Made by a program: the position numbers and the translations under genes
Notes under the pieces: model-generated
Seen by the model: only the letters and a program-made list of their open reading frames with translations
Told to the model about the DNA's origin: nothing
Databases searched by the model: none
Part shown: positions 1-4,530 of the stretch, piece by piece
Position numbering within the stretch: the stretch's first letter is position 1
Layout: the number at the start of each line of letters is the position of its first letter
Virus record (IMG/VR): IMGVR_UViG_3300023488_000045
Coordinates: 1-4,530 of that record
Source of the DNA: a virus
Lineage: Duplodnaviria > Heunggongvirae > Uroviricota > Caudoviricetes
Length of the DNA: 4,530 nucleotides
Reading direction: 5' to 3' (one strand)

Positions 1-116
1 GCGTCCAGCGATGTCAGTGCAATCCGTGCAAGTTCCATTTGTTCGCCACGGGTAAGTCCGTTATCAAGCGGATTTTTAATGAATAATTCGATACGTTCTT
101 TGGTTATAGCGCTCAT
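1..116 (-). CDS. hypothetical protein, 5' portion only (gene runs off the window at position 1)
   Basis: ATG at 116..114 on the minus strand, preceded by AAGGAG (128..123) with a 6-nt spacer. Frame is open to position 1, giving MSAITKERIELFIKNPLDNGLTRGEQMELARIALTSLD... Start lies 2 nt past the TGA (120..118) of the upstream gene. Absent from the ORF track because it is truncated. No family recognised. Confidence 0.4.
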   Translation of the reverse strand, partial: MSAITKERIELFIKNPLDNGLTRGEQMELARIALTSLD

Positions 117-117
117 A

Positions 118-609
118 TCACTCTCCTTTGATGCGAATGCCAGTGGCGCGTGGCACATTAACTTCCACGATGCGCACTGTTGGTTTGTACATCTCAATCG
201 CTGTCAGCCAGTCAGCTCCTGTCATGCGCTTTTCCGCATCGCCATTAGTCCACTGAACCGGTACGCCAATAGCCTTCATCGCGATTTCTATTTCCCCGGC
301 AATGGCGCTTTTTCCGCAACCAGTAAAACCAGAAACAACGACAAGAACTTCACCTTTGGCTGGTTTTATTTCCCGTGCTTCCAGTTCTGCAATGCGCTTT
401 TTGTCTGCTTCCCGTTCATCCAGTAGTGCCAGCACGGTTTCTGGTCCGGTCAGAAATTTGAAGGCGTTGAGCGCATCAATATCCACACCGTAATCTTTAA
501 GTTCCTGTTCACTTAACAAATCATCATCAACTGGCAACATTAACAGGCGTTCCATTGCTGGAGTTGCACGTTCTGCCGCATCTCGCAGTGCCTGATAGTC
601 AATTGTCAT
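118..609 (-). CDS. phage accessory protein: N-terminal coiled-coil region (KKRIAELEAREIK) plus C-terminal Walker-A/P-loop kinase-like fragment
   Basis: ORF track 118..618 (-). Preferred start is ATG 609..607, which overlaps the upstream TGA (608..606) as ATGA and has an AAGGA Shine-Dalgarno (622..618) 8 nt upstream; ATG 618 is the alternative. Protein contains a beta-strand-like EVLVVVS followed by GFTGCGKS (GxxxxGKS) and a helix-like AIAGEIEIAMKAIG, then a WTNGD loop. Only about 75 residues follow the P-loop, too few for a complete NTPase. Confidence 0.6.
   Translation of the reverse strand: MTIDYQALRDAAERATPAMERLLMLPVDDDLLSEQELKDYGVDIDALNAFKFLTGPETVLALLDEREADKKRIAELEAREIKPAKGEVLVVVSGFTGCGKSAIAGEIEIAMKAIGVPVQWTNGDAEKRMTGADWLTAIEMYKPTVRIVEVNVPRATGIRIKGE
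380..398 (-). repeat. 19-nt exact dispersed repeat tccagttctgcaatgcgct; second copy at 1542..1560
   Basis: Identical 19-mer in gene 118..609 and in Ea22-like paralog 1. Both encode KRIAELE on the minus strand within coiled-coil segments; flanks diverge. Confidence 0.85.
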
Positions 610-1250
610 TCTCGCCATCCTTCACAGTTGTAATCACTACAGCCTTCAAAATCATATGGGCTGTACTGCCAGGTTATTTTTCCGCAATGCGGACAATTCC
701 AACGCACCTTCCCGCTTCGCGACTTCTTTCTTCTGTTCTGCTCTTTCAACCAGTCAGGCATGACCAAACCTGCGCCCTGAACCATTGTTCTGCGGTTAAA
801 GTTATTGATATTGAACGTCCGGCGCTTTGCTGCATCAGCAATGGAAAATGACAACCAAACTATTCCTGGTTCGTTTTTGTTGACGACGCTAAAGATGGTC
901 GCTTTACTGAAGTCATCTGTTGGCAATCCACCGCGTTGAAGCCAGTAAACATCGTTGCCGTTCCAGCTACCTTTTTTGTAGGCCACATACTCAGTGCAAT
1001 CTGACTCAATCAGGCTTTCTGTAGGGATGTACTGGCAATCAACGTGCCACACAGCCATTGCATCCACACTATCGGCACAAACAGGCTGATCGATATCTCG
1101 CCCACAATTCCAGGCTTTTTGGGCTTCTTCCAGCGTGTAAATATGAGCGCGATCGATATCAGAACTGTAACCATTGCCGTTATGGCAATGGAATGAGGCG
1201 TTATTACCCACAGTTTCACGCAAGCACATCATGTAAAAGCGGTTATTCAC
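606..1250 (-). CDS. hypothetical Cys/Trp/His-rich protein with C-terminal zinc-ribbon-like motif (CPHC-x14-C-x4-C)
   Basis: ORF track 606..1250 (-), 214 aa. GTG start at 1250..1248 overlaps the TGA (1249..1247) of the upstream Ea22-like gene as GTGA. Strong AAGGAGG Shine-Dalgarno (1263..1257) with a 6-nt spacer. C-terminus NCPHCGKITWQYSPYDFEGCSDYNCEGW. Its stop overlaps the downstream start as ATGA. No family recognised from memory. Confidence 0.6.
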   Translation of the reverse strand: MNNRFYMMCLRETVGNNASFHCHNGNGYSSDIDRAHIYTLEEAQKAWNCGRDIDQPVCADSVDAMAVWHVDCQYIPTESLIESDCTEYVAYKKGSWNGNDVYWLQRGGLPTDDFSKATIFSVVNKNEPGIVWLSFSIADAAKRRTFNINNFNRRTMVQGAGLVMPDWLKEQNRRKKSRSGKVRWNCPHCGKITWQYSPYDFEGCSDYNCEGWRE

Positions 1251-1909
1251 TGGTTGCCTCCTTTGCGAAGCTGTTCAGCAATACTTACGCATATCTCTGC
1301 GCCTCTAATCAGCCCCGGAACGTTCTTGTTTGGCCCAACTTCACCATCAACAAAATCAATCATCGCGTTACGAGCCATATCCACCCCCTGCGCACGTACT
1401 TCAGCCAGGAGAGCGTCGGTAGCTGGGGTTTCCGTGAAGTTGTCCTCCCAACCGTAGTACTCCTGACGACAGAAGTTATTAAATTCCTTCTCCGACTGTT
1501 TAAGCGCCGCATTCTCCGCTGCCAGCGCCGTGCGTTCGCTCTCCAGTTCTGCAATGCGCTGTTTTGCGGCATCAAGTTCAATCGATAATTTTTCCAACTG
1601 CTCTTTATGCTTCTTGTATTCCTGATATGCGTGCCAGGACTGACCTTTGCGCACACTATCAGTAATATCAGTAATCTGTTCTGGTGTTAGCGTGGTCAGT
1701 GGCTGTGCTGGGAAAATCAGCACTTTCCCGGAATCCCAATCAAAACCAGCGTGAATTGACTGAACCTCAACTGAGGGTGTTGAACCAATGCTGCCAGGCG
1801 AATGAACAACGATCGTTACATCCATATCGCGACGATGGCTGTGGTTGTTGGACAAAATACGATTCAACAAAATACGATTCACCAACTCAGAAAATTTGGA
1901 GAATTTCAT
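1247..1909 (-). CDS. Ead/Ea22-like family protein (paralog 1)
   Basis: ORF track 1247..1921 (-); the track start is a TTG, and the first ATG is at 1909..1907 with a GAGG Shine-Dalgarno 6 nt upstream. Central coiled coil AKQRIAELESERTALAAENAALKQ and the motif ETPATDALLAEVRAQGV, which I recognise as typical of lambdoid Ead/Ea22-like proteins. C-terminus AEQLRKGGNQ is homologous to paralog 2. Confidence 0.7.
   Translation of the reverse strand: MKFSKFSELVNRILLNRILSNNHSHRRDMDVTIVVHSPGSIGSTPSVEVQSIHAGFDWDSGKVLIFPAQPLTTLTPEQITDITDSVRKGQSWHAYQEYKKHKEQLEKLSIELDAAKQRIAELESERTALAAENAALKQSEKEFNNFCRQEYYGWEDNFTETPATDALLAEVRAQGVDMARNAMIDFVDGEVGPNKNVPGLIRGAEICVSIAEQLRKGGNQ
1257..1263 (-). promoter_or_regulatory. 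Shine-Dalgarno AAGGAGG for the GTG-initiated gene 606..1250, embedded in the last codons of the upstream Ea22-like gene
   Basis: AAGGAGG on the minus strand, 6-nt spacer to GTG 1250. Confidence 0.6.
1259..1280 (-). repeat. conserved junction motif at the 3' end of both Ea22-like genes (second copy 2336..2357, 20/22 identical)
   Basis: ctcctttgcgaagctgttcagc versus ctcctttgcgaatctgttccgc. On the minus strand this encodes AEQ(L/I)RKG and contains the AAAGGAG Shine-Dalgarno serving the GTG start of the downstream gene in both cases (GTGA overlap at 1250 and 2328). Confidence 0.8.
1853..1882 (-). repeat. 15-bp tandem direct repeat x2 (caaaatacgattcaa / caaaatacgattcac) inside the Ea22-like paralog 1 N-terminus
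   Basis: Read directly: 1853..1867 and 1868..1882 are identical except for the last base. In frame (5 codons each), giving NRILL-NRILS in the protein. Confidence 0.8.
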
Positions 1910-2328: not shown

Positions 2329-2855
2329 TTGTCAGCTCCTTTGCGAATCTGTTCCGCCCATTCTTCAAGGGATTTCTCCGCATATTCACCGGACAGGCCA
2401 TCAATCGGGTGCGGTTCATTAGCTAACTCTTCTTTCGCTGACAGAATCATGCGTGTAACGTCGAAAACTTCACGTAAAGACTTATTGATAAATCCGTGAT
2501 TGAACGCAGCAGCAAGACGGCTGGCGGTATAGTTAATCCCCTCGTTGCGTGCTTCCGCACGAATTTCAGCAAGGAAAGCATCGGTGGCGGGAGTTTCGCT
2601 GTGGTGCAGGGCATCGTTGATAATCATTGCAGCAACACCAGCCTGCCCTGCATCCGTGACCGACACATGCTCAAGAGTTACGACCATTGCGTGTTTCAGC
2701 CCAGCATTCTCCGCCGCCAGCGCCGCGCACTTGGCCTCCGCTTCAGCAAATTTACGCACCAGATATTCAGCGTTTGTTTCGTTAACCTTTAAATCTCGTG
2801 GGATGCATTTACCTTTCAGAAATCCATCCATCTCAATTAGTGACATTTGTTTCAT
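2325..2855 (-). CDS. Ead/Ea22-like family protein (paralog 2)
   Basis: ORF track 2325..2873 (-), which begins at a GTG. Preferred start is ATG 2855..2853, overlapping the TGA (2854..2852) of the upstream small ORF as ATGA. Contains [11 protein letters not shown] and [16 protein letters not shown], and a C-terminal [10 protein letters not shown]; homologous to paralog 1 at protein and nucleotide level. Confidence 0.7.
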
Positions 2856-3016
2856 TTCTTCCCACTCCGCCACATCGCATTCAGATATTTGTTGTCATTA
2901 ACAGAACCGAAACTCTTTCTCTTAAGCAATTCCTCTCTCGATGGCATTGGCTTTACGCGTTGGCGAATAATCATTTCTGCCGGAAGAATGCCGGGATTGT
3001 ATGCAAGTCCTCTCAT
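2852..3016 (-). CDS. small basic hypothetical protein (54 aa)
   Basis: In-frame part of track ORF 2852..3166 (which begins at a TTG at 3166 and overlaps the 97-aa gene out of frame). ATG 3016..3014 is preceded by TGAGGAA with a 6-nt spacer, and that Shine-Dalgarno overlaps the TGA of the 97-aa gene. Its own stop overlaps the ATG of Ea22-like paralog 2 as ATGA. Product [54 protein letters not shown]. Alternative ATGs at 3049 and 3034 lack a Shine-Dalgarno. Confidence 0.35.
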
Positions 3017-3026
3017 GGTAAATTCC

Positions 3027-3320
3027 TCAGTCATTACTGATAGCGCCATAGCGTGAGCGGTAATTACGCAGGCGCGGGTCAATTTCAGGGAAGTGGGTAT
3101 ATGCGGCTTTGCGGAATGGTCGGATTGATGTCTGGTAAATTCGCTCGCGTTCTTCTTTCTCTGCAAGCCATATACAGTGGCGAAATTCCTTTTCCTCTTT
3201 CGTTTCCTGCGGTAGAGACATTATTCGATCGTAGTTTTTTTTGAATTTATCCAGCACCTCCGATACGGAATTGCCGGAACAGCGGCGCGCGTCATCCGCA
3301 CCATACAGAGGCGCTGGCAT
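3027..3320 (-). CDS. small phage protein (97 aa); tentatively Abc2-like anti-RecBCD protein on position and size only
   Basis: ORF track 3027..3320 (-). ATG 3320..3318 with a TAAGGA Shine-Dalgarno 7 nt upstream. Sits downstream of erf/ssb where P22-like phages carry abc1/abc2, and P22 Abc2 is about 97 aa as I remember it. I cannot verify sequence identity, so the product call is low confidence. Confidence 0.45.
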
Positions 3321-3343: not shown

Positions 3344-3727
3344 TCAGAATGGGATGGAATCGTCGTATACAGGAGTGTTCTGCTGGTTACTACTTTGCTG
3401 CTGCGGGCCATTTCCTGAAGCTGCAAATCCAATCTTTGCATTCAGTAATTCAAGAGTGATTGATTGACCATTTTGCCCCTGATAAACATCAACCCTGATG
3501 TTTTCTCCGGTAATTTCCACAATGCCACCTTCAACAAGAACACTACGGTAGTAATCCGCTTGCGCTCCCGGCTTGGCAAATACAACGGCGCTGTAGTTTG
3601 TCCATTCTTTCTTTTTTGTCTGGCGATCGTAATACTGAACGCCAGCACGGATGTTGAATCCGATATTTTCCACGGCCTGAAACTCTCTTGCGGGCTTGTT
3701 TAGTCTTACAGTAATCGAATGTGCCAT
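3344..3727 (-). CDS. ssb: single-stranded DNA-binding protein (phage SSB-like, short form)
   Basis: ORF track 3344..3727 (-), 127 aa. ATG 3727..3725 overlaps the erf TAA (3729..3727) as TAATG; AAGGAG Shine-Dalgarno lies inside the erf 3' end. OB-fold-like core (YSAVVFAKPGAQADYYRSVLVEGGIVEITGENIRVDVYQGQNGQSITLEL), Gly/Gln-rich linker, and acidic-aromatic tip YDDSIPF resembling the canonical SSB DDDIPF tail. Confidence 0.75.
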   Translation of the reverse strand: MAHSITVRLNKPAREFQAVENIGFNIRAGVQYYDRQTKKKEWTNYSAVVFAKPGAQADYYRSVLVEGGIVEITGENIRVDVYQGQNGQSITLELLNAKIGFAASGNGPQQQSSNQQNTPVYDDSIPF

Positions 3728-4332
3728 TAAGCAGCAGCTCCTTCTAATTCGTCTCGTCTGATGTTGTAAACGTCCTGCGCTTTGTGCTGCTCAGGTGTGC
3801 CTTCGAGCATCTTCCACGCTTTGGCGAACGCCTGTTTAAGCTCTTCTACGGTGTTTTTCTGCATTGCTGCGTCAGTGAATGCTTTTAGAACCTGTTCAGG
3901 TGTAGGTGATGGTTTTGATTGCTTTGCTGCTGCGTTCTGCTGATGTTTATGCTCGTCTGTATCTGCATCTTTCGCATCATCAATGCCGAACAAACCATTG
4001 AGGCAATACTTGCGTGCATAAGAGCTTGTAGCTCCCGTAACTTGTGCAGAATCCATTCCTTTCTTGCTTTCTTCCTCTCGTGCAAGAGCGGTTGCCGTAT
4101 GGCTGTTTTCGCCATCGGTAATAGTTGCCGTGGCTTTCACGTAATACCGATCACCAATCAACACAACTTCATCGCTGATTGATAAAAACAGACCATTCAG
4201 TAACGGCTTAACGCCTTCAAGAATATCTTCGCAGCTTCTGTATTTATATTTACCGAATGAGTTGTACTGATTCTTTGGCGCGTTCAGATTCTCCTGAATA
4301 GCTGCCAGTCTTGCGTAAAATTCTTTGCTCAT
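3727..4332 (-). CDS. erf: Erf-family single-strand annealing protein (essential recombination function)
   Basis: ORF track 3727..4362 (-), whose first codon is a TTG. Preferred start is ATG 4332..4330 (MSKEFYARLAAIQENLNAPKNQYNSFGKYKYRSCEDILEGVKPLL...), which I recognise as closely resembling the phage P22 Erf N-terminal domain. About 201 aa. Followed by a translationally coupled ssb. Confidence 0.85.
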   Translation of the reverse strand: MSKEFYARLAAIQENLNAPKNQYNSFGKYKYRSCEDILEGVKPLLNGLFLSISDEVVLIGDRYYVKATATITDGENSHTATALAREEESKKGMDSAQVTGATSSYARKYCLNGLFGIDDAKDADTDEHKHQQNAAAKQSKPSPTPEQVLKAFTDAAMQKNTVEELKQAFAKAWKMLEGTPEQHKAQDVYNIRRDELEGAAA

Positions 4333-4342
4333 ATGATTGTTC

Positions 4343-4513
4343 TCAGAATGGACATGGACCAAGGAAATAACGCTGATTTAATACTTCGGTCTTTGCCGCA
4401 TTTAAAAAGACGCGAACACCTTCACGATCGCCCTTCTGGCGATACATTAACGCCTGCTGCGTGTACATGCGCCTCTGTAACTTGCTCTCCTTCACTGTGG
4501 TTGCAAGTGACAT
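4343..4513 (-). CDS. small protein (56 aa) immediately upstream of erf, at the Arf/Kil position of P22-like phages
   Basis: Not in the ORF track (under 60 aa). ATG 4513..4511 preceded by a perfect AAGGAG (4525..4520) with a 6-nt spacer. Hand translation: MSLATTVKESKLQRRMYTQQALMYRQKGDREGVRVFLNAAKTEVLNQRYFLGPCPF, stop TGA at 4345..4343, 10 nt before the erf ATG. Identity with Arf or Kil not verified. Confidence 0.45.
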   Translation of the reverse strand: MSLATTVKESKLQRRMYTQQALMYRQKGDREGVRVFLNAAKTEVLNQRYFLGPCPF

Positions 4514-4519
4514 GAATAT

Positions 4520-4525
4520 CTCCTT
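4520..4525 (-). promoter_or_regulatory. Shine-Dalgarno AAGGAG for the small ORF 4343..4513
   Basis: Perfect AAGGAG on the minus strand, 6 nt upstream of ATG 4513. Confidence 0.6.
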
Positions 4526-4530
4526 CGTTA

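What the first reader, a model, noticed from the sequence alone, without database searches (positions are those of the whole stretch)
4343..4513. Strongly signalled 56-aa gene missed by the ORF track, and an over-extended erf start
A perfect AAGGAG with a 6-nt spacer to ATG gives a 56-aa ORF ending 10 nt before erf, the position held by arf/kil in P22-like phages. Kil-type proteins inhibit host cell division, so a small ORF here is biologically meaningful. The track's erf ORF begins at a TTG 30 nt upstream of the likely ATG 4332 and would overlap this small gene.
Basis: partly seen in the sequence, partly recalled or inferred. Interest (0 to 1): 0.35.

Follow-up and report, generated by a model that had tools for sequence, protein, structure and literature searches.

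The report
Known small gene upstream of erf

Summary
A 56-aa ORF lies on the minus strand at 4513..4343, with AAGGAG, a 6-nt spacer and ATG, and its stop is 10 nt before the erf ATG at 4332. It is a genuine gene. Against Sf6 its frame gives dN/dS 0.20, while the other two frames give more than 1. Full-length homologues at 34-82% identity occur in phages with different flanking genes. It matches PHROG 1723 (E 4.5e-34), the family of HK022/HK97 gp42, Sf6 gp29 and HK620 HkaM. RefSeq already annotates it as hypothetical protein WP_000050554.1, and 863 of 5426 complete E. coli genomes carry the region.

It is not Arf or Kil by sequence. Kil is a separate gene further upstream, outside the window. 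The only Arf-like motif ((W/F)SDEEFI) belongs to a second ORF, "42.1". That ORF starts outside the window and overlaps the first 92 nt of this gene in another frame. Only the N-terminal ~22 codons of 42.1 are under selection.

The erf start at ATG 4332 is supported. Function is unknown. The protein is predicted as a basic two-helix hairpin with an invariant C-terminal FLGxxPF. It always sits directly upstream of a strand-annealing gene, whichever of three Pfam families that gene belongs to. Already known; low interest.

The parts
4343..4513 (-). 56-aa CDS (stop included) of the HK97 gp42 / HK022 gp42 / Sf6 gp29 / HK620 HkaM family, PHROG 1723
   Evidence: full-length PHROG match at E 4.5e-34; dN/dS 0.20 against Sf6 in this frame only; annotated in RefSeq as WP_000050554.1
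4520..4525 (-). Shine-Dalgarno AAGGAG, 6 nt upstream of the ATG; it lies inside the coding sequence of the overlapping ORF 42.1
   Evidence: unchanged in all 83 loci with upstream sequence, and replaced by GAGGA in the diverged Pseudocitrobacter prophage
4422..4530 (-). 3' part (35 codons plus stop) of overlapping ORF '42.1' (PHROG 2123). It starts about 62 nt beyond the window end at the ATGA overlap with kil and overlaps the 56-aa gene by 92 nt in another frame. This tail is not under selection.
   Evidence: pN/pS 2.95 in the 42.1 frame across the overlap, against 0.31 for its unique N-terminal 22 codons, which lie outside the window
3727..4332 (-). erf CDS from its real start ATG 4332 (201 aa, PF04404 ERF)
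   Evidence: every inspected record that annotates erf starts it here; the N-terminus MSKEFYARL is identical to P22 Erf; the same start follows four different upstream contexts
4333..4362 (-). spurious TTG-initiated 10-codon extension of erf (MVHVHSENNH), made of the last 20 nt of the small gene plus the 10-nt spacer
   Evidence: no record annotates it; window/HK022 differences here change the extension (V>G, N>K), and the one that lies inside the small gene is synonymous there
3344..3727 (-). SSB-like protein of the same recombination module, ending ...DDSIPF
   Evidence: PHROG 44, E 5.7e-27; HK022 note: 'likely analog of P22 Abc1'
3027..3320 (-). Abc2 anti-RecBCD protein of the same module
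   Evidence: PF11043, E 7.7e-62

Best explanation
SHOWN: The ORF is a genuine protein-coding gene of the early-left (PL) recombination module of an HK022/HK97/Sf6-type lambdoid prophage of E. coli. It belongs to the small enterobacterial-phage family PHROG 1723, which holds HK97 gp42, HK022 gp42, Sf6 gp29, mEp234 gp30 and HK620 HkaM. It has its own strong ribosome-binding site. Its protein sequence is under purifying selection. It always lies immediately upstream (a 6-12 nt gap or a short overlap) of the phage strand-annealing gene, whichever family that gene belongs to (ERF, Rad52_Rad22 or the Sak4-type AAA_24). An SSB usually follows, and often an Abc2-like gene. A second ORF, 42.1, starts at the stop codon of kil, carries an Arf-like acidic N-terminal peptide, and reads about 30 unconstrained codons into this gene. 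The real erf start is ATG 4332.

PREDICTED: The protein is a basic (net about +6) two-helix hairpin (AlphaFold2, pLDDT 88) followed by a short tail. The C-terminal sequence F-L-G-x-x-P-F-COOH is invariant or nearly so across the family.

INFERRED (about 30-35% confidence): It is a non-catalytic accessory or regulatory subunit of the recombination module. It would work by protein-protein contact through its C-terminal tail with a partner common to all these modules (SSB, the host recombination or replication machinery, or the acidic 42.1/Arf-like peptide) rather than with one particular annealing protein. Its stop codon 10 nt before the weakly signalled erf ATG probably also couples erf translation to its own. 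It is not a cell-division inhibitor.

The confidence given (0.7) is for the statement as a whole: about 0.95 for the identity of the gene and the erf start, about 0.3 for the inferred mode of action.
For: Coding status:
- Window vs Sf6: dN/dS 0.20 in this frame, 1.4 and 2.2 in the other two. Window vs Salmonella phage ABTNLsp11242: pS 0.90, pN 0.23. The other frames contain stops.
- HK022 vs a Pseudocitrobacter prophage: pN/pS 0.19 (overlap part) and 0.33 (remainder) in this frame.

Family:
- PHROG 1723 at E 4.5e-34, full length. HkaM hits the same PHROG at 3.6e-33 and the Erwinia phage 59 protein at 4e-16.
- The alignment of 17 members keeps S10, A21, E43, F50, P55 and the terminal F56 invariant, and R25 and L51 nearly so.

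Annotation:
- HK022_42, mEp234 gp30, Sf6 gene 29 and PGAP WP_000050554.1.
- The region is present in 863 of 5426 complete E. coli genomes.

Context: the gene is directly upstream of ERF (PF04404, two subtypes), Rad52_Rad22 (PF04098) and AAA_24/Sak4 (PF13479, two subtypes). The 100%-identical protein precedes either ERF or Rad52_Rad22.

Structure: pLDDT 87.8, helices 7-27 and 30-51.

erf start.

ORF 42.1.
Against: - No experiment addresses the function of this family. In HK620, sak4 plus ssb alone gave the full oligonucleotide-recombineering activity of the four-gene module, so HkaM is dispensable in that assay (PMC5928155).
- Foldseek found nothing meaningful in the PDB or BFVD (best E 2.1 and 0.6). 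A helical hairpin is a generic fold.
- Adjacency to annealing genes could reflect mosaic gene order in the PL operon rather than a shared function.
- An AlphaFold2 model of a natural 42.1N-ORF42 fusion was of low confidence (pLDDT 55.6), so it gives no support for the two parts interacting.
- Translational coupling to erf is inferred only from the 10-nt spacing and the weak erf Shine-Dalgarno sequence.
Confidence: 0.7

Rival explanations
1. The ORF is the counterpart of P22 Arf, an Erf-specific recombination cofactor, or of Kil, a cell-division inhibitor.
For: It occupies the slot between kil and erf where P22 has arf. HK620 hkaM was originally labelled arf for the same positional reason.
Against: BLASTP against P22 Arf finds no alignment, and against P22 Kil only 6 residues at E 0.14. 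There is no hit to the Arf PHROG 2445 or to any Kil PHROG at E<=1. The protein is basic, whereas Arf is acidic. A separate kil gene lies upstream in relatives. The identical protein also precedes Rad52_Rad22-type annealing genes, and homologues precede Sak4-type genes, so it is not Erf-specific. Hutinet et al. state that HkaM has no homology to Arf.
Confidence: 0.03
2. The real gene here is the overlapping ORF 42.1, as annotated in phage HF4s, and the 56-aa ORF is a chance open frame inside it.
For: HF4s annotates only 42.1. ORF 42.1 starts at an ATGA overlap with the kil stop. Its N-terminal 22 codons are under selection (pN/pS 0.31) and it has its own PHROG, 2123.
Against: Across the 92-nt overlap the 42.1 frame shows pN/pS 2.95, against 0.19 for the 56-aa frame. 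The 42.1 tail differs in sequence and length in Sf6 (52 aa) and is truncated to 36 aa in one locus. The 42.1 frame is closed in the Salmonella and Erwinia phages, while the 56-aa protein is retained full-length there.
Confidence: 0.03
3. 42.1 and the 56-aa ORF are one gene. A +1 frameshift, programmed or lost in some strains, joins the acidic Arf-like N-terminal peptide to the hairpin and gives an ~82-aa protein, alongside the 56-aa product from the internal start.
For: In-frame fusions exist in HK97 (Gp42.1, 83 aa) and in the metagenome proteins P0010, P0011, P0013, P0016 and P0025. An SD-like sequence lies just upstream of the junction, as it does in prfB.
Against: The fusions use six different junctions (the five metagenome proteins plus HK97), as expected from sporadic indels or sequencing errors. 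Truncating frameshift variants occur in the same data (P0018, P0021, P0024). There is no slippery or hungry-codon site: AUU CAU would need tRNA-Ile to re-pair on UUC. The Erwinia-type and L101-type loci have two separate genes joined by ATGA.
Confidence: 0.04
4. The gene's main role is in cis. It would be a short upstream cistron whose translation delivers ribosomes to the poorly signalled annealing-gene start, and the peptide itself would be unimportant.
For: The stop lies 6-12 nt from, or overlaps, the annealing-gene start in every context. The erf SD in the window is weak (GAGAA; read).
Against: The amino-acid sequence is under clear purifying selection, with an invariant C-terminal motif down to 34% identity. 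The Rad52_Rad22-type partner has its own good SD (GAGGTGA) overlapping the stop.
Confidence: 0.1

Closest known systems
HK620 HkaM (NP_112046) and HK97 Gp42 / HK022 gp42 / Sf6 gp29 (PHROG 1723)
   Same: Same family. The HMM match is full-length at E 4.5e-34, and the protein is 100% identical to HK022_42 and mEp234 gp30. Members are 56-62 aa, share the C-terminal FLGxxPF motif, and sit directly upstream of the strand-annealing gene.
   Different: Nothing material. It is about 34% identical to HkaM, whose partner is Sak4 rather than Erf. The 'recombinase' product name carried by some records and by the PHROG rests on no evidence that I could find.
P22 Arf (accessory recombination function, PHROG 2445)
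   Same: A small gene in the kil-erf interval of a P22-like recombination module, and a possible accessory role.
   Different: No sequence similarity. Arf is acidic and 47 aa; this protein is basic. Arf's start-proximal FSDEEFI motif is matched by the overlapping ORF 42.1 (WSDEEFI; BLASTP E 0.013, PHROG 2445 E 0.042), not by this ORF.
Kil (lambda, HK97 and P22 cell-division inhibitors; PHROGs 2055, 3924, 2461)
   Same: A small PL-operon protein in the same neighbourhood.
   Different: No similarity. A bona fide kil (PHROG 2055, E 1.2e-35) is encoded separately about 76 nt upstream in relatives.
C-terminal tail of bacterial and phage SSB (…DDDIPF; HK620 SSB …NDYPPF)
   Same: The family ends invariably in P-F-COOH (…GPCPF, …GEPPF, …SELPF). 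This resembles the SSB tip that docks onto partner proteins, and the tail of HK620 SSB is what recruits Sak4.
   Different: This is a resemblance only. The acidic run preceding the SSB tip is absent, there is no OB fold, and no binding data exist.

Membership tests
PHROG 1723 (HK97 gp42 / HkaM family) | Full-length profile match | tested here: met
   E 4.5e-34, residues 1-56 on profile positions 3-58 of 58
PHROG 1723 (HK97 gp42 / HkaM family) | 56-62 aa with a conserved C-terminal F-L-G-x-x-P-F at the very end | tested here: met
   Alignment A3 of 17 members: F50, P55 and F56 invariant, L51 at 90% or more
PHROG 1723 (HK97 gp42 / HkaM family) | Located immediately upstream of the phage strand-annealing gene in the early-left operon | tested here: met
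   The stop is 10 nt before the erf ATG. The arrangement is the same in 12 diverse loci, except that an HNH endonuclease gene intervenes in the Salmonella phage locus (L007).
P22 Arf (PHROG 2445) | Sequence similarity to Arf | tested here: not met
   BLASTP found no alignment at E<=100; no PHROG 2445 hit at E<=1
P22 Arf (PHROG 2445) | Small acidic protein | tested here: not met
   Counted from the sequence: 10 K/R against 4 D/E, net about +6
P22 Arf (PHROG 2445) | Gene lies between kil and erf | tested here: met
   (a positional analogy only)
P22 Arf (PHROG 2445) | Stimulates Erf-dependent recombination | not testable with these tools
   Needs genetics. HkaM was dispensable for Sak4 recombineering.
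Kil (PHROGs 2055, 3924, 2461) | Sequence similarity to a Kil family | tested here: not met
   No Kil PHROG hit at E<=1; P22 Kil gives only a 6-residue match at E 0.14
Kil (PHROGs 2055, 3924, 2461) | Inhibits FtsZ and causes filamentation | not testable with these tools
   Needs an expression experiment. A separate kil gene already exists upstream in relatives.
ERF family (PF04404), for the erf start | N-terminus matches the start annotated for P22 Erf | tested here: met
   From ATG 4332 the protein begins MSKEFYARL, identical to P22 Erf. The ERF domain begins at residue 5 of that protein.

The most novel reading that the evidence does not exclude
The HkaM/gp42 family is a mimic or competitor of the SSB C-terminal tail. 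In this reading, a basic helical hairpin presents an invariant …xPF-COOH tip that docks into the pocket where annealing proteins or host genome-maintenance enzymes bind the SSB tail. It would act together with the acidic Arf-like 42.1 peptide encoded just upstream, which is occasionally fused to it. This would explain why the gene is kept next to annealing proteins of unrelated folds. It would also give Arf-type accessory genes a mechanism for the first time.
Probability: 0.08. Interest if true: 0.55.

Novelty: already known. Interest (0 to 1): 0.15.

Why it matters
For annotating this window, three things follow. The 56-aa gene should be called. erf should start at ATG 4332. The names 'Arf', 'Kil' and 'recombinase' should not be transferred to the small gene.

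More broadly, this is one of several small, conserved genes in lambdoid recombination modules that nobody has studied, alongside Arf, Abc1 and HkaM. About 16% of complete E. coli genomes carry it. Its constant position in front of unrelated strand-annealing proteins makes it a reasonable, though modest, candidate for a recombination accessory factor.

Tried and rejected
- Pfam and NCBIfam scans of the 56-aa protein gave nothing significant.
- Foldseek with the confident AlphaFold2 model gave only generic helical-hairpin matches against the PDB and BFVD (best E 2.1 and 0.6).
- An AlphaFold2 model of a natural 42.1N-ORF42 fusion (P0010) was meant to show whether the acidic peptide packs on the hairpin. 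It had pLDDT 55.6 and is uninformative.
- A beta-clamp-binding motif reading of NQRYFL was considered and rejected, because the Q is not conserved in the family (S, L, G, N, Y or E in other members).
- Programmed +1 frameshifting was considered and judged unlikely (six different fusion junctions, no slippery site).
- I tried to link the upstream ORFs of the Erwinia-type and L101-type loci to 42.1 and Arf. MAFFT lines up a D-x-x-F-I motif at a constant distance from the downstream start, but BLASTP finds nothing, so this stays a lead only.
- The 80 IMG/VR loci all encode the identical protein. Their 18 purely synonymous variants are biased by how the loci were selected, and I did not use them as evidence of selection.
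- Genome-collection scans with the broad alignments failed for lack of a conserved stretch. The narrower alignment found only 8 loci.
- The literature search for gp42.1, HK97 gp42 and Sf6 gp29 found nothing relevant.

Full report
**1. Observation**

The window's right end, read on the minus strand, is TAACGAAGGAGATATTCATGTCACTT....
- AAGGAG is at 4525..4520, followed by the 6-nt spacer ATATTC and the ATG at 4513..4511.
- The ORF runs 56 codons to a TGA at 4345..4343.
- Ten nucleotides later comes ATG 4332..4330, which opens MSKEFYARL....
- The mechanical ORF list extends this reading frame to a TTG at 4362. That adds MVHVHSENNH and overlaps the small ORF by 20 nt.

AAGGAG-N6-ATG occurs twice in the window, both times on the coding strand, against 0.04 expected by chance.

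**2. Is it a gene?**

Yes.

Selection on the reading frame:
- Against Sf6 (82% aa identity), Nei-Gojobori counts give dN/dS 0.20 in the ORF's frame and 1.4 and 2.2 in the other two frames.
- Against Salmonella phage vB_SalP_ABTNLsp11242, synonymous sites are nearly saturated (pS 0.90) while pN is 0.23.
- Against Erwinia phage 59 the frame is still open at the same 56-codon length, whereas the other frames carry stops.

Family membership:
- The protein is a full-length member of PHROG 1723 (E 4.5e-34).
- HK620 HkaM (E 3.6e-33) and the Erwinia phage protein (E 4e-16) fall in the same PHROG.

Distribution:
- The family is small. An exhaustive profile search of 1.84 billion representative proteins found 20 hits, of which about 15 are genuine clusters.
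- A scan of one genome from each of 185,579 species found 8 loci. All are in Enterobacteriaceae except one MAG contig that is probably contamination.
- Within E. coli it is common: 863 of 5426 complete genomes carry the region.

**3. It is already annotated**

The identical protein is HK022_42 and mEp234 gp30, and Sf6 gene 29 is 82% identical. In an E. coli prophage identical to the window over 4320-4530, NCBI's pipeline calls three genes in turn: kil, then 'hypothetical protein WP_000050554.1' (exactly this ORF), then 'ERF family protein' starting at the position equal to window 4332. The product name 'recombinase' attached to the PHROG and to some RefSeq phage records has no experimental basis that I could find.

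**4. Not Arf, not Kil**

I fetched P22 and translated its arf, kil and erf genes.
- The 56-aa protein has no BLASTP alignment to Arf.
- Against P22 Kil it gives only a 6-residue chance match at E 0.14.
- It hits neither the Arf PHROG (2445) nor any Kil PHROG at E<=1.
- It is basic (10 K/R against 4 D/E), whereas Arf is acidic.

The literature agrees. Hutinet et al. 2018 (PMC5928155) note that HK620 hkaM had been labelled 'arf' by position only, has no homology to P22 Arf and is of unknown function. They also found that sak4 plus ssb alone reproduced the recombineering activity of the whole module that included hkaM. Arf itself remains mechanistically uncharacterised (PMC12315714 and PMC9836394).

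**5.

HK022, HK97 and Sf6 annotate a second ORF, '42.1'. It starts at an ATGA overlap with the kil stop, about 62 nt beyond the window's end. It runs in another frame to a stop at window 4424..4422, overlapping the first 92 nt of the 56-aa gene. Phage HF4s annotates only this frame.

Its product begins MSFTDNWSDEEFIRQMKELIGNEGD. That is acidic and shares (W/F)SDEEFI with the N-terminus of P22 Arf, MQHEFSDEEFIA... (BLASTP E 0.013 for the pair; PHROG 2445 E 0.042). If anything in this region is related to Arf, it is 42.1, and the link is weak.

Comparing HK022 with a diverged Pseudocitrobacter prophage that also has both ORFs:

| Stretch | Frame | pN/pS |
|---|---|---|
| Unique N-terminal 22 codons of 42.1 | 42.1 | 0.31 (pS 0.81) |
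| 92-nt overlap | 56-aa gene | 0.19 |
| 92-nt overlap | 42.1 | 2.95 |

Further points on the 42.1 tail:
- It differs in sequence and length in Sf6, and is cut to 36 aa in one IMG/VR locus.
- In the Erwinia-type loci the upstream small gene simply stops at an ATGA overlap with the 56-aa gene's start.

So the 56-aa gene and the N-terminal peptide of 42.1 are both real coding sequence, and the overlapping 42.1 tail is an unconstrained read-on.

**6. Fusions**

HK97 carries a 1-nt frame change that fuses 42.1 to the C-terminal two-thirds of the 56-aa protein (Gp42.1, 83 aa). Five metagenome proteins fuse the two at other junctions (P0010, P0011, P0013, P0016, P0025). Truncating frameshift variants occur in the same data, so sporadic indels or sequencing errors are the simplest explanation. 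I found no slippery site for programmed frameshifting.

**7. The erf start**

- Every inspected record that annotates erf starts it at the ATG corresponding to window 4332.
- The N-terminus MSKEFYARL is identical to P22 Erf.
- The same start follows four different upstream contexts: the arf overlap in P22, a diverged family member in L098 (MMSKEFY), an HNH endonuclease gene in the Salmonella phage (MNKEFCERL), and this window.
- The TTG lies inside the conserved ...FLG... codons of the small gene. The window/HK022 difference there (T>G) is synonymous for the small gene but changes the would-be extension.

**8. What the protein may do**

AlphaFold2 with a 12-sequence alignment gives a confident model (pLDDT 87.8). 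It has two antiparallel helices (residues 7-27 and 30-51) and a less ordered C-terminal tip, GPCPF. Foldseek finds only generic hairpins.

Across 17 members down to 34% identity, the invariant positions are S10, A21, E43, F50, P55 and the terminal F56, with R25 and L51 nearly so. Together these define a C-terminal F-L-G-x-x-P-F-COOH motif.

In every locus examined the gene lies 6-12 nt upstream of, or slightly overlapping, the strand-annealing gene; the one exception is the Salmonella phage, where an HNH endonuclease gene sits between them. That gene is ERF (PF04404, two subtypes), Rad52_Rad22 (PF04098, the Sf6 type) or AAA_24/Sak4 (PF13479, two subtypes). An SSB ending in ...(I/P)PF usually follows, and often an Abc2-like protein.

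Among 84 loci encoding the identical 56-aa protein, 31 continue into the Rad52_Rad22-type gene and 53 into ERF. The protein therefore cannot be a cofactor tailored to one annealing protein.

My best inference, at roughly one-third confidence, is a non-catalytic accessory or regulatory protein of the recombination module. It would contact a shared partner through its C-terminal tail. A secondary cis role would be delivering ribosomes to the weakly signalled erf start.

The resemblance of its ...xPF end to SSB C-terminal tips is intriguing, because the HK620 SSB tail NDYPPF is what recruits Sak4. It is untested, and the acidic run of true SSB tails is missing.

**9. Verdict**

- The feature is already known as an annotated hypothetical gene of a named family (HkaM/gp42) whose function is unknown.
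- Interest is low.

Noticed in passing
window 4422..4530 (-), continuing about 62 nt beyond the window end: Overlapping ORF '42.1' (PHROG 2123). Its acidic N-terminal peptide carries the only Arf-like motif (WSDEEFI) and is under selection (pN/pS 0.31). Its 30-codon tail, which overlaps the 56-aa gene, is not (pN/pS 2.95).
   Followed up: yes
L006 (HK97) 1090..1341; proteins P0010, P0011, P0013, P0016, P0025: Natural in-frame fusions of the 42.1 N-terminus to the 56-aa protein at six different junctions, including HK97 Gp42.1 (83 aa). They are probably sporadic indels or sequencing errors, but they could hint that the two products work together.
   Followed up: partly
window 2852..3016 (-): Another gene below 60 aa: a 54-aa DUF2737 protein (PF10930, E 5e-29) directly after abc2. 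An ORF track with a 60-aa cut-off would probably miss it too.
   Followed up: partly
window 114..128 (-): The only other perfect AAGGAG-N6-ATG in the window. It marks the start (ATG 116..114) of a gene that runs off the left end, 1 nt after the stop of the Ead/Ea22-like gene at 118..618.
   Followed up: no
window 4343 (stop of the 56-aa gene); loci L010-L089: A mosaic joint lies exactly at the stop codon. Among 84 loci encoding the identical 56-aa protein, 53 continue into an ERF-family gene (MSKEFY...) and 31 into a Rad52_Rad22-family gene (MDLNKFD..., Sf6 type) with its own GAGGTGA Shine-Dalgarno sequence overlapping the stop.
   Followed up: partly
window 3344..3727 (-): The 127-aa protein after erf has no Pfam hit but matches the PHROG 44 SSB family (E 5.7e-27) and ends ...YDDSIPF, like an SSB C-terminal tip. 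HK022 annotates its counterpart as 'likely analog of P22 Abc1'.
   Followed up: no
RefSeq phage records (for example NC_019715 gp30, NC_002730 hkaM) and PHROGs 1723 and 2123: The product name 'recombinase' is attached to both small ORF families without any experimental basis that I could find. NCBI's prokaryotic pipeline calls the same protein 'hypothetical protein'. This is probably a name propagated from the neighbouring genes.
   Followed up: partly
L008, L101, L102 (small ORF directly upstream of the family member): A different 44-49 aa upstream ORF ends in ...KDF(T/D)FI(N/R)xM..., 13-14 codons before the start of the HkaM-family gene. This echoes the DEEFIRQM motif of 42.1 and Arf at the same distance. 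BLASTP finds nothing, so it is only a lead for a conserved pair of 'Arf-like peptide plus HkaM-like protein'.
   Followed up: partly
L092 (JAFADF010000066.1, 'Actinomycetes bacterium' MAG, 3.9-kb contig): An 82%-identical copy of this enterobacterial phage gene sits in a contig binned as an actinomycete. This is probably contamination or a binning error.
   Followed up: no
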